This document shows positions 50,899 through 57,505 of a stretch of DNA of 64,000 nt, piece after piece (position 1 is the first letter of the stretch; each line of letters opens with the position of its first letter). The stretch comes from Adineta vaga. Taxonomy: Eukaryota; Animalia; Rotifera. The position numbers and the translations under genes are program-made. Under the pieces are notes generated by a model, which was not told the DNA's origin, did not search any database, and was given only the letters and a program-made list of their open reading frames with translations. The stretch is taken from positions 13,144,001 to 13,208,000 of the forward strand of contig CP075493.1 of the NCBI GenBank assembly GCA_021613535.1, written 5' to 3'.

Positions 50899-53800
50899 TT
50901 AGTTAATAATAGCTTTTTCTGTAGCACAGCGACCAAAATTTTCTGGTGAATACATTTCTTCTGCTTTGGCTGGTGGCATTATAAATGTTCCAGCAGACGT
51001 TGCACGCATAATATAGCTCCATTCATAAACACCAGGCCAGACTAATGATCGAAAAGCTTCAGCACGTTCATCACGTAAATTTTCATGTTCAGTCCAATCA
51101 GTAATTGAATATGGGAAACAACCATGTTGATTTGATCGTGAAACGGATGAACTTGTATCACCAGTAATTGTACCTTTTAATTCTGTATTTAATGGTTCAC
51201 AACCAGCTGGTAAATAATCAACTAATGCAATATGATATCGTCGTTGTGTAGTTGTCATTGTTAATATAACTTTAATTTTTTGTCCTAATTTAAAATTCCA
51301 TGTACCATCAGCTTGCTTTTCAACATGTGATGAATCATCTACAGCGACATATGTTCGTTCAATTTTAAAACCATAATTAACTGCATTTAATTGTAAACTT
51401 TTCGGTGCATAATTCAATGCAATACGATAGTATAATCGACCAACCATCCTTTTGCATAATTAAATTCTTATTATTTCCTTCGGATGGTGATAAAATAACT
51501 TTCATTGGGATATTAACTGTATATGTATTGGTTGATCGACCTTTATATTCATGTTGACCACAATAATCATTATTAAGCCAAATATTTGCAACGAAATCGG
51601 GTGTATCTTTTTCTTTGATATGAAAATATTTTTCCAATGCAATTAATACAAAACAATTTTCTTGTGTTGATTTCCATGCACCTTTAACTTTATGTGCTTG
51701 TAAACCTTTACATAGTTTCGTACAAAGTGTGGATTTTGGATCGATATATAATAATGCTTCTAATAGAATGGCATCTGTTCGTTGATTTGAATGTAACATA
51801 ACTGATTGACCATCGTCACCATACGATGTTATAAAATTGGCTGTTTCAGCAGTTTCACTTACTTTACCTTTCAAATGTTTATAGATTGTTTCAGTAAATT
51901 GAGTTGTTTGAGCATTTTTATCCGTAGATAATGCAATTAAGAGCCAACCTAATGCTTCTAAACTAAGTTTATTAAGTCCACTACGTACAAAAAGATCTAC
52001 TGCTTCATTTGCTACATTTTGTGAGTCTTTAGCTCGTACATATAGAGCATAACTAATCAAACTAAATCGAGTTGTTTCAGACCAATATTTTGCATATAAT
52101 AATTGATTGATTTCCGACTCAATATTAGTCAAATATCCAAGTACATTTCTGACCGTATTTCCATCAAAATCACATACCTTCAAAAAAGATTACAACAATG
52201 GTTTTTTTTTTGTTGAAAAGAAATGCTCAATGGGTATGAAAGTTTTCGACTATTTACCTGTTTTTGTTTAACAATAATGAGACAATGTGCAGCATGTACA
52301 CTAACAAATGGATCAGCATAGGAACCATCTCGATTTGTCCAATAACCAAAACCACCATTTGCATATTGACGACCTTTTAATGTACTTAAATCTGATTGTA
52401 ATTTTGTTCTCATTACCGATATATCCGGTAGATCTTTACATTGAAATGCTTGTAAAACATCCCATAATGCTTGAACACCTAATAATCGTGAACTTAATTG
52501 TTCTGTACATTCATATGGATATGTATACAATGAAATAATTGCATCTGTTAATGATGCTAATGCTGTTGAACTTGTTGAAATTGATAATTCACCAAATTGT
52601 GGAATAACATTTTCTGGTGTTTTAATTGGTTGAAAAACAATTTGTTCTTCACATACATCACCGTAAGTTGCAAATGCTTCTGATGTTGCCGGTGTAAAGA
52701 CAGGTACACTTAATTCAATTGCATCACCAAATGGTGTTTGATTTTTATCTGCTACAGTACTAACGATGAATTGAAATCGAGCAGTACCTGCATCAACTGT
52801 TGAGAGTGGAAATATTACCGCACTGCGTTTATTCGGTTGAAGTTGAACTGCATAACCAACAGCTTGTTGAGTGGTATCTGATGTAATTAATTTTGCATTG
52901 GTTGCTTTCAAACCAGCATGTAATAATAATGATGAATTCGTCTGATTTTGTAAAACAACTGACAAATGAGCTGTATCTCCATAATTAAGAAATCTTGGTG
53001 GTGAAGGACGGATCATTACTGGTAATTGTACAGTGAATCCCATTTCACTAAAACCATATTGTTGATCAGTTGTTGCTATAGCCCATACACGATAACGTGT
53101 TAAGTTATCAGGTAATTTGAAATCGAATGAAACACGTCCAGATGAATTTGTTGCCGATGATGGTATCCAACATGCTAATGGATTGAAGTTCGATCGGACA
53201 GCTATTGTTTGATCAGCACCACCACCACCGCCGCCAAAAGCACCGAAGCTAGCCATACACATAGGTGCTGCAAACATTTTCGCGTCCCTTGAACAACACT
53301 CCATCATCATCATGTGCTGACTTCCACCATGTCTCTGTTGCATATCTTTCTTGAATTGTTGAATATCTTGCATATTGAATAATAGACAACGATTTCTACC
53401 ATGATATAGTCCAATCGTTGCTTGTCGATCAGGATAAAAGAAATCTAATGGATCAGTTAGTTTATAATCAGTTAACGATAAAATTGATTCATCGACAACA
53501 ACAAGACAAACTTCTGCTTTATCCACAGGTGCTTTATTTGTAAATTGTGTCACATCGACATCAATATGGACACTAGCTGCTGGTGTATACGTCTTCTGTG
53601 CGTCTTTTGTATTAACTGACACATTCAGTTTATATACATCTTTGGAGACTCTCAATGCTACTGAACCAACAGCAATGGCTGGACGACTGGGTGCATTTTC
53701 TACTTCTGTTTCTCTTGGCATAGAACCAGTTAATTCCACATGTGCAGTAAATCCTGGTATCCAATCTTTTGAGATTTTAAAATCGATCGTTCCTGAATCT

Positions 53801-56800: not shown

Positions 56801-57505
56801 CTCTCACGTCAAATACAAGTTACCCCCAAGTTCTGATACACAATTTTCCTTCTTGACTTGTAATTTATATTTTGTTGCATATGGTAAACGATGTTTTGGT
56901 TCAAATTGTACTGTTTTTGTTCCTGTCCATCTCCATCGACCTTCTAATTTTGGTGTTAATGATATACCAAGATTTTCTACATTCGTATTTTCATCCACGG
57001 TCGAAACAGCAATCATCGGTTGATTGAATGTGATTGTCACCGATGCTACTGGATAACTAATTTCTGTTTCAGTCGGCGAATATCGCTCGATGATCAATGG
57101 ACCTACTTCTCGTTTAGCTAATTGTTTTAATTGTTCAATATCAATCTCGGCATCTTCTTGACGATCTTCGGAAGGTGGTGGAAATGGTGTTTGTATGATT
57201 TGACCTGTTTTTGGTGCTTTAATTGTTGCTTCACGTTTGAAAAATTCTTGTTGATCATTGGATTCGGCAACCAATTTAGAACTTGCTCGAGTAAACAATT
57301 GTTGTAATTGATCGGGAGTTAAGTTCTGTTGTTGCGATTGTGAATCGCCTGTCAATGGCCCCACGTCAGCATCTGTTGTACTCTGCTCATCCGTTCCATT
57401 TGCTTCGCTAAGATTAAAACAGAATTGATGTTGTCCAGATTCATCAAATGGTCCAGATTGTCCATATCGGGGTTTTTTAATTCGATAGGGTTGTGCTCTG
57501 CTCAT
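50899..57505 (-). CDS. Bacterial-type alpha-2-macroglobulin (YfhM-like, Ig-like N-terminal domains), 7 exons, two apparent 1-nt frameshifts
   Basis: ITFNQPM...EGRWRW.GT (Ig-like); [17 protein letters not shown] (MG2); [11 protein letters not shown]...[27 protein letters not shown]; thioester [34 protein letters not shown]. Introns 56766-56823, 56148-56201, 55875-55943, 54566-54622, 54093-54150, 52178-52257. Frameshifts at about 54818 and 51444. Confidence 0.88.

What the first reader, a model, noticed from the sequence alone, without database searches (positions are those of the whole stretch)
50899..57505. Bacterial-type alpha-2-macroglobulin carrying six spliceosomal introns, an intact CTEQ thioester motif and no signal peptide
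Seen: domain order and motifs of bacterial A2M (Ig-like N-terminus, [15 protein letters not shown] rather than the metazoan GCGEQ, LRDER...PAKAEEMY), split by six GT-AG introns of 54-80 nt. The N-terminus [15 protein letters not shown] has no hydrophobic signal or lipobox. A Met/Cys/Gly-rich bait-like segment ([32 protein letters not shown]) precedes VRSNF. Known: bacterial A2Ms are periplasmic lipoprotein protease traps, and bdelloids carry many horizontally acquired genes. Inference: an old horizontal transfer that gained introns and may act as an intracellular protease trap.
Basis: partly seen in the sequence, partly recalled or inferred. Interest (0 to 1): 0.72.

Follow-up and report, generated by a model that had tools for sequence, protein, structure and literature searches.

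The report
Signal-less macroglobulin shared with ferns, amoebae
A bdelloid rotifer expresses a spliced gene for a bacterial-style alpha-2-macroglobulin that keeps its reactive thioester motif but has no export signal, and its nearest relatives are equally signal-less proteins of ferns, algae and amoebae rather than of bacteria, so it likely arrived from another eukaryote and likely traps proteases inside the cell.

Summary
The gene is real. All six GT-AG introns are skipped in spliced contigs. The window is Adineta vaga. No signal peptide: an in-frame stop precedes the ATG, and intronless relatives also lack one.

Trees place it in one clade of signal-less proteins from bdelloids, Adiantum ferns, chlorarachniophytes, amoebozoans and heteroloboseans, with ferns as sister. 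A direct bacterial donor is rejected (AU p 6.6e-7). The clade keeps CxEQ (36 of 38) and has a cysteine-rich bait (2 or more Cys in 27 of 38, against 0 of 102 on the bacterial side). Introns were probably gained inside bdelloids.

Best reading: an intracellular covalent protease trap (0.5); location and activity are untested. A paper's supplement already flags this gene as HGT. This scan noted the signal-less family before in Naegleria. I found no paper on the clade in nine searches. New variant of a known kind.

The parts
56824..57505 (-). Exon 1 coding part: ATG, polar N-terminal extension without signal peptide, first Big_5 domain
57548..57550 (-). In-frame stop 15 codons upstream of the ATG, inside the stretch covered by one RNA-like contig (to 57552)
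56766..56823 (-). Intron 1, 58 nt, GT-AG, phase 1
56202..56765 (-). Exon 2, second Big_5 domain
56148..56201 (-). Intron 2, 54 nt, phase 1
55944..56147 (-). Exon 3, part of third Big_5 domain
55875..55943 (-). Intron 3, 69 nt, phase 1
54623..55874 (-). Exon 4, bMG3-like and MG2 domains; holds a 1-base assembly deletion near 54818
54566..54622 (-). Intron 4, 57 nt, phase 0
54151..54565 (-). Exon 5
54093..54150 (-). Intron 5, 58 nt, phase 1
52258..54092 (-). Exon 6: A2M_BRD, bait, A2M domain, start of the thioester domain
53200..53373 (-). Bait segment, residues 1280-1337, 58 aa with 3 Cys and 9 Met; variable among bdelloids; low confidence in the model of a relative
52498..52521 (-). YPYECTEQ thioester motif (Cys1568, Gln1571)
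52178..52257 (-). Intron 6, 80 nt, phase 0
50899..52177 (-). Exon 7 coding part: rest of thioester domain and bMG10; holds a 2-base assembly deletion near 51442; RNA-like contigs run on to 50764-50819

Best explanation
This is an expressed, spliced 2077-residue bacterial-type alpha-2-macroglobulin without an export signal that likely stays inside rotifer cells and likely works as a covalent protease trap. Inferred steps: a protease cuts the flexible bait (residues 1280-1337), the thioester domain swings out, and the Cys1568-Gln1571 thioester links to a lysine of the protease, as shown for E. coli A2M. Likely targets are proteases that reach the cytosol from damaged lysosomes or from microbes. 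The bait cysteines would fit a reducing compartment and may add thiol reactivity or acylation sites. History, inferred from trees: one old bacteria-to-eukaryote transfer with loss of the signal peptide, later eukaryote-to-eukaryote spread, an intronless arrival in early bdelloids, then intron gain.
For: Shown: splicing and open frame. Orthologues at 64-80% identity in Adineta, Rotaria and Didymodactylos. CxEQ in 36 of 38 clade members against 79 of 102 on the bacterial side. Bait 35% identical among 12 bdelloid rows against 76% for the thioester domain, and pLDDT under 50 at 344-383 in the model of the A. steineri relative P0005. A2M fold. Hydrophobic N-terminus in 0 of 34 full-length clade members against 87 of 100 on the bacterial side; the eukaryotic proteins begin about where the bacterial signal peptide ends. 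Single-ORF relatives without any intron also start without a signal. Bait Cys 5.6% against 1.5% in the rest of the region; bacteria 0.04%. Trees; AU tests. PMC12220480 supplement rows: a gene with matching domains and neighbours, baseMean 3177, unchanged in spaceflight. Mechanism of ECAM from passages of PMC3328433 and PMC12939704.
Against: No assay of thioester formation, trapping or location exists for any member of this clade in what I saw. Signal absence was judged by hydropathy and alignment, not SignalP. The 5' end rests on one RNA-like contig; 11 letters beyond 57552 match nothing nearby. A thioester in a thiol-rich cytosol might be discharged (own reasoning). Many bdelloid cysteines outside the bait are fully conserved among 13 rows, which disulfides could also explain. 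Some bdelloid paralogues have only one bait Cys. VIA-align ranks activated human A2M (Z 29.5, rmsd 11.1, 728 aligned) above ECAM (Z 26.4, rmsd 13.6, 725 aligned), so fold alone does not say bacterial. No bootstrap tree finished; 22 of 38 rows fail the composition check.
Confidence: 0.5

Rival explanations
1. The protein is made without a signal but acts outside cells, released by unconventional secretion or cell damage into gut lumen, body cavity or wound, as an ordinary extracellular protease trap.
For: All characterised A2Ms in the reviews read are extracellular or periplasmic. Thioester and bait are kept. Conserved cysteines in bdelloids.
Against: 0 of 34 full-length members across four eukaryote lineages regained a signal. 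A. vaga also has metazoan CD109/Mcr-like genes annotated as extracellular. The two best-conserved N-glycosylation sequons are also in most bacterial rows, so they are not glycosylation-specific.
Confidence: 0.2
2. It is a cytosolic covalent tagger in the manner of complement C3: activation by a microbial or stress protease makes it attach to invading microbes or damaged membranes and mark them for disposal, rather than cage the protease.
For: Shared fold with C3 and TEP1. A signal-less cytosolic C3 isoform exists in human cells (passages of PMC13739894). Most carriers are phagotrophs. Three extra Ig-like domains could bind surfaces.
Against: By sequence only E. coli and Salmonella A2M match among solved structures. 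Ferns are not phagotrophs. The residue that tunes C3 for hydroxyl targets was not tested.
Confidence: 0.17
3. The main role is not trapping: the cysteine-rich loop senses redox state or binds metal, or the protein is a cage or chaperone that protects cell contents during drying and oxidative stress.
For: Bait Cys enrichment is specific to the eukaryotic clade, up to 19 in one row. Human A2M has chaperone activity (search listing). Steady expression.
Against: CxEQ is kept more strictly in the clade than in bacteria. Cys number and spacing vary widely among paralogues, unlike a fixed metal site.
Confidence: 0.13
4. On origin only: the gene came to bdelloids directly from a bacterium, or was inherited from an early eukaryote and lost from nearly all animals.
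For: Intronless bdelloid-like copies fit an intronless donor. Database hits used in PMC12220480 are bacterial. Wide spread over Amoebozoa, Heterolobosea and Rhizaria fits an old eukaryotic gene.
Against: Bdelloid+bacteria rejected, p-AU 6.6e-7. Bdelloid+named amoebozoans rejected, p-AU 2e-47 (grouping chosen after seeing the tree, and hidden paralogy is not excluded). 76 named prokaryotic genomes added none to the clade.
Confidence: 0.15

Closest known systems
Type I bacterial alpha-2-macroglobulins: E. coli ECAM/YfhM and Salmonella A2M (PDB 5a42, 4ziq, 4rtd, 4u48)
   Same: MG, bait, thioester and MG10 domain order; CxEQ with the tyrosine four residues before the Cys; only PDB sequence matches (E 7e-20 to 1e-12); top Foldseek ranks.
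   Different: About 20% identity; 2077 against about 1650 aa, with three Big_5 domains; no signal peptide or lipobox; no PBP1C partner; introns; Cys-rich bait.
Uncharacterised ~2000-aa Ig-extended A2M family (K06894/COG2373) of Acidobacteriota, Chloroflexota, Myxococcota
   Same: About 36% identity over about 2100 columns; same Pfam string; YP[YF]EC[ST]EQ common.
   Different: 87 of 100 have a hydrophobic N-terminus; bait nearly free of Cys; they lie outside the eukaryotic clade.
Signal-less eukaryotic homologues: Adiantum ferns, Bigelowiella, Amorphochlora, Cochliopodium, Sappina, Cavostelium, Protostelium, Dracoamoeba, Naegleria, Willaertia, Percolomonas
   Same: One clade; 34-40% identity; no signal; CxEQ mostly kept; Cys-rich bait.
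   Different: All are unnamed or hypothetical records; none characterised in the papers found.
Dictyostelium COG2373-like proteins (DdiCPRas2, EAL60755.1; PMC2430557)
   Same: A bacterial-type A2M homologue in a eukaryote, attributed to HGT (passages).
   Different: Carries a GTPase insert; thioester and signal not discussed in the passages read; not among my hits, so clade membership is untested.
Metazoan TEPs (A2M, A2ML1, CD109, C3) and cytosolic C3
   Same: Same superfamily fold; cytosolic C3 shows that a signal-less thioester-family protein can exist in cytosol.
   Different: 10-15% identity, no phmmer match at E up to 1; cytosolic C3 is an alternative start of a secreted gene, here the gene has no signal at all.

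Membership tests
Alpha-2-macroglobulin superfamily | MG domains, bait, thioester domain and C-terminal MG/RBD in order | tested here: met
Alpha-2-macroglobulin superfamily | CxEQ thioester motif | tested here: met
Alpha-2-macroglobulin superfamily | Thioester forms; bait cleavage traps proteases | not testable with these tools
   needs protein
Type I bacterial A2M (ECAM type) | Bacterial-type domains (bMG10, bMG3) and sequence kinship | tested here: met
   bMG10 E 3e-33; bMG3 below cut-off
Type I bacterial A2M (ECAM type) | Signal peptide with lipobox | tested here: not met
Type I bacterial A2M (ECAM type) | PBP1C gene alongside | tested here: not met
   Neighbours are 7TM, FG-GAP, esterase and NHL genes. 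A recalled transglycosylase motif was found in 0 of 58 bacterial loci of 12 kb or more, a rough check.
Type II bacterial A2M (MagD/YfaS) | Lacks CxEQ, lipoprotein operon | tested here: not met
   CTEQ present; definition from PMC3328433 passage
Metazoan TEPs | Sequence kinship, GCGEQ-type motif, metazoan TED and receptor-binding Pfams | tested here: not met
   No such Pfam on the exons; no PDB sequence match
Metazoan TEPs | Placement in a tree that includes metazoan TEPs | not tested
Eukaryotic signal-less Ig-extended A2M clade | Groups with the protist and fern members apart from bacteria | tested here: met
Eukaryotic signal-less Ig-extended A2M clade | Cytosolic location | not testable with these tools
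   inferred only
CAGE complex | Homology to CAGE1 | tested here: inconclusive
   The preprint describes only domain-level fold likeness to A2M (passages); no direct comparison was run

The most novel reading that the evidence does not exclude
Eukaryotes have a second, intracellular branch of thioester immunity: one bacterial A2M lost its signal peptide in a protist, gained a cysteine-rich bait, and moved between eukaryotes into chlorarachniophytes, ferns and bdelloid rotifers, where it guards the cytosol by covalently capturing or tagging proteases and invaders. The Adineta gene would be an animal member received from another eukaryote and given introns afterwards.
Probability: 0.3. Interest if true: 0.8.

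Novelty: new variant of a known kind. Interest (0 to 1): 0.58.

Why it matters
A 2026 review lists A2Ms in metazoans and Gram-negative bacteria (PMC12939704). A clade in an animal, ferns and three protist groups that keeps the thioester but has no export signal would extend the family to the cytosol. It also offers a testable eukaryote-to-eukaryote transfer into an animal, which best-hit screens label bacterial. Intronless and intron-bearing copies within bdelloids allow intron gain to be timed. A. vaga is cultured and the gene is well expressed, so location and trapping can be tested directly. The public protein record (1903 aa) is damaged by two assembly errors.

Tried and rejected
Pseudogene: rejected, both breaks are contradicted by all covering runs. 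Small introns at the breaks: no convincing pair; the public model skips 14 residues at the first break and ends early at the second. Bacterial contamination: rejected by introns, GC3 0.15-0.18 like neighbours at 0.14-0.22 and eukaryotic neighbours. The 11 loose letters at the 5' end: 7 matches with up to 2 mismatches against 13 expected by chance, unexplained. No listed run is on record as RNA; RNA origin is inferred from the splice joints. No whole genome was held. Bootstrap trees did not finish, so supports are SH-type only; a bdelloid+Rhizaria AU test was started and not finished. One search added only 8 of 80 genomes through a faulty filter and was redone. The synteny check read the esterase ORF on the wrong strand and is void for that ORF; the other four showed only repeat-family hits. 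ESM Atlas returned only A2M clusters without taxa. No monogonont, other animal or fungus appeared among the named rows of three homologue searches (one listed each), which is weak evidence of absence. PMC11258130 supplements: no 'macroglobulin' in 15 of 16 files; the expression table was too large to read, so response to fungal infection is unknown. Budd 2004 was not held; the HGT compendium's supplement was unavailable. No complex prediction was run.

Full report
Observation. The region holds a minus-strand gene from ATG 57505 to stop 50899. Pfam on the exons gives Big_5 three times (third below cut-off), bMG3 (below cut-off), MG2, A2M_BRD, A2M and bMG10. YPYECTEQ lies at 52521-52498.

Reads. 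One search listed 24 runs, 20 holding the stretch or part of it; none is on record as RNA. I laid 8 of them, all as contigs. In one search, X10 and X17 (two studies) skip all six introns and X1 and X3 skip none. Intron 1 appears there shifted by two bases with non-canonical ends; a variant at 56825 explains this, and one search shows it as canonical. In one search, X6 and X14 skip the three introns in range, X18 (patchy) one, and X2 none. Two extra bases behind 51442 stand in 4 of 4 runs; one extra base behind 54818 in 3 of 4, the fourth not covering it. Both breaks are therefore assembly errors. With X at the breaks the frame is open for 2077 aa, Cys at 1568. The public record P0002 (Adineta vaga, 1903 aa, 100% identical over exon 6) skips 14 residues at the first break and loses MG10 at the second.

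Signal peptide. The highest hydropathy in the first 150 residues is 0.63. An in-frame stop lies at 57550-57548, inside the one contig that reaches 57552; 11 further letters of that contig match nothing beyond chance. Two contigs of X6 end at 57532. Six metagenome loci (three distinct types at 66-77% identity to each other) encode the protein in a single ORF, five complete and one cut by the contig end, and start without a signal. Their neighbours look bdelloid-like (my judgement). An alignment of 17 N-termini shows the eukaryotic proteins starting about where the bacterial signal ends. No SignalP was available.

Relatives. Orthologues and paralogues occur in Adineta, Rotaria and Didymodactylos at 64-80%. 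The next hits are Adiantum ferns (two species, on large scaffolds), then bacteria. Name look-ups of 30 proteins, mostly chosen for lacking a signal, gave Cochliopodium, Sappina, Cavostelium, Protostelium, Dracoamoeba, Naegleria, Willaertia, Percolomonas and Bigelowiella; Amorphochlora was named. Fourteen scanned proteins share the core Pfam string. Among solved structures only E. coli and Salmonella A2M match by sequence. A model of the C-terminal 1128 residues of an A. steineri relative (mean pLDDT 82.4, pTM 0.59) ranks these first in Foldseek, but VIA-align puts activated human A2M slightly higher; the fold shows superfamily only.

Trees. I aligned residues 700-2077 for the window's protein and 139 of the 387 proteins then at hand, leaving out most partial and near-duplicate rows. 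FastTree separates 38 rows from 102 with support 1.0. Of the 38, 27 are eukaryotic by name or source and 11 are unnamed; most of the 102 are unnamed and are called bacterial by position. Adding 76 of 80 named prokaryotic genomes left the clade unchanged (0.999). IQ-TREE quick trees gave SH-aLRT 100 for the split, 99 (LG+G4, 38 rows) and 97 (C20 mixture, 22 rows) for bdelloids plus ferns, and 97 and 99 with chlorarachniophytes added. One of the fern rows (P0039) and one amoebozoan row (P0365) carry my label, not a name. Bdelloids plus bacteria is rejected (p-AU 6.6e-7), and so is bdelloids plus named amoebozoans (2e-47, chosen after seeing the tree). No bootstrap finished, and composition is uneven. 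The donor and direction cannot be named; independent receipt by ferns and bdelloids from an unsampled eukaryote is one option.

Clade traits. Hydrophobic N-terminus: 0 of 34 against 87 of 100 full-length rows. CxEQ: 36 of 38 against 79 of 102. Two or more bait cysteines: 27 of 38 against 0 of 102. Bait Cys is 5.6% against 1.5% elsewhere in the clade, higher in 33 of 38 rows; bacteria have 0.04%. Among 12 bdelloid rows the bait is 35% identical and the thioester domain 76%. Fragment ends in other bdelloid records suggest that introns 4, 5 and 6 are shared and that other positions exist elsewhere (indirect). With the intronless copies as sister to the named bdelloids, intron gain after arrival is the simpler reading; loss in that lineage is possible.

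Literature. Nine searches found no paper on this clade or on a bdelloid A2M. PMC12220480 (supplement rows only; file cut when stored): FUN_001198 is flagged HGT with bacterial best hits, baseMean 3177, FDR 0.72 and 0.56 in spaceflight; its neighbours (NHL, 7tm_1, esterase, UDPGT, VIP2-like) match the window's order, so it is very likely this locus. The same table lists metazoan CD109/Mcr-like genes. PMC2430557 (passages): COG2373-like proteins in Dictyostelium, ascribed to HGT. PMC4189545 (passages): I39 in plants confirmed only in Micromonas, ferns not in its table. PMC3328433, PMC13069473, PMC12939704 (passages): mechanism and known range. PMC13739894 (passages): cytosolic C3. CAGE preprint (passages): a different family. 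PMC11258130: supplements searched, expression table unreadable. Unseen supplements may list this gene.

Earlier notes of this scan describe signal-less bacterial-type A2Ms in Naegleria, one with a Cys-rich bait and later marked as partly fallen. I saw them after my trees; they prompted the bait cysteine count. They are not independent support.

Verdict. Shown: gene structure, expression, thioester motif, absence of a signal, clade membership, Cys-rich variable bait. Inferred: cytosolic location, thioester formation, trapping, eukaryotic donor, intron gain. New variant of a known kind; interest 0.58.

Noticed in passing
L001-L006: Bdelloid-like metagenome loci carry the A2M as one intronless ORF, and several neighbours are long single ORFs too; possibly an intron-poor bdelloid lineage.
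   Followed up: partly
window 16570-20174 (-): Two adjacent long helical ORFs (667 and 392 aa); the second has a weak Bacillus_HBL match below cut-off among many coiled-coil matches, the first none. Could be a two-part pore-forming pair or plain coiled coils.
   Followed up: partly
window 27546-27548: A stop separates two in-frame ORFs (454 and 189 aa) that look like one ADP-ribosyltransferase/TPR-type gene; may be an intron, a real stop or another assembly error.
   Followed up: no
window 54228, 54268, 54668, 57146, 57216: Loose ends in DNA-like and RNA-like runs point to a diverged second copy of this gene in the same organism.
   Followed up: no
window 57552: An acceptor-like pyrimidine tract ends here and one RNA-like contig diverges at the same place with 11 unmatched letters; possible 5' UTR exon, leader or adapter.
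   Followed up: partly
window 58125-58500: Depth five to six times the surroundings in DNA-like runs indicates a repeated element upstream of the gene.
   Followed up: no
P0358 (Cochliopodium): About 200 extra N-terminal residues beginning Met-Gly, a possible myristoylation site; Pfam found no domain there.
   Followed up: partly
P0001: A Rotaria record with three YPYECTEQ motifs in 1423 aa, probably a tandem array or mis-joined model.
   Followed up: no
window 44324-45280 (+): Esterase (PF00756) that the PMC12220480 table also flags as HGT; NHL, FG-GAP, amidase-like and UDPGT genes lie nearby.
   Followed up: partly
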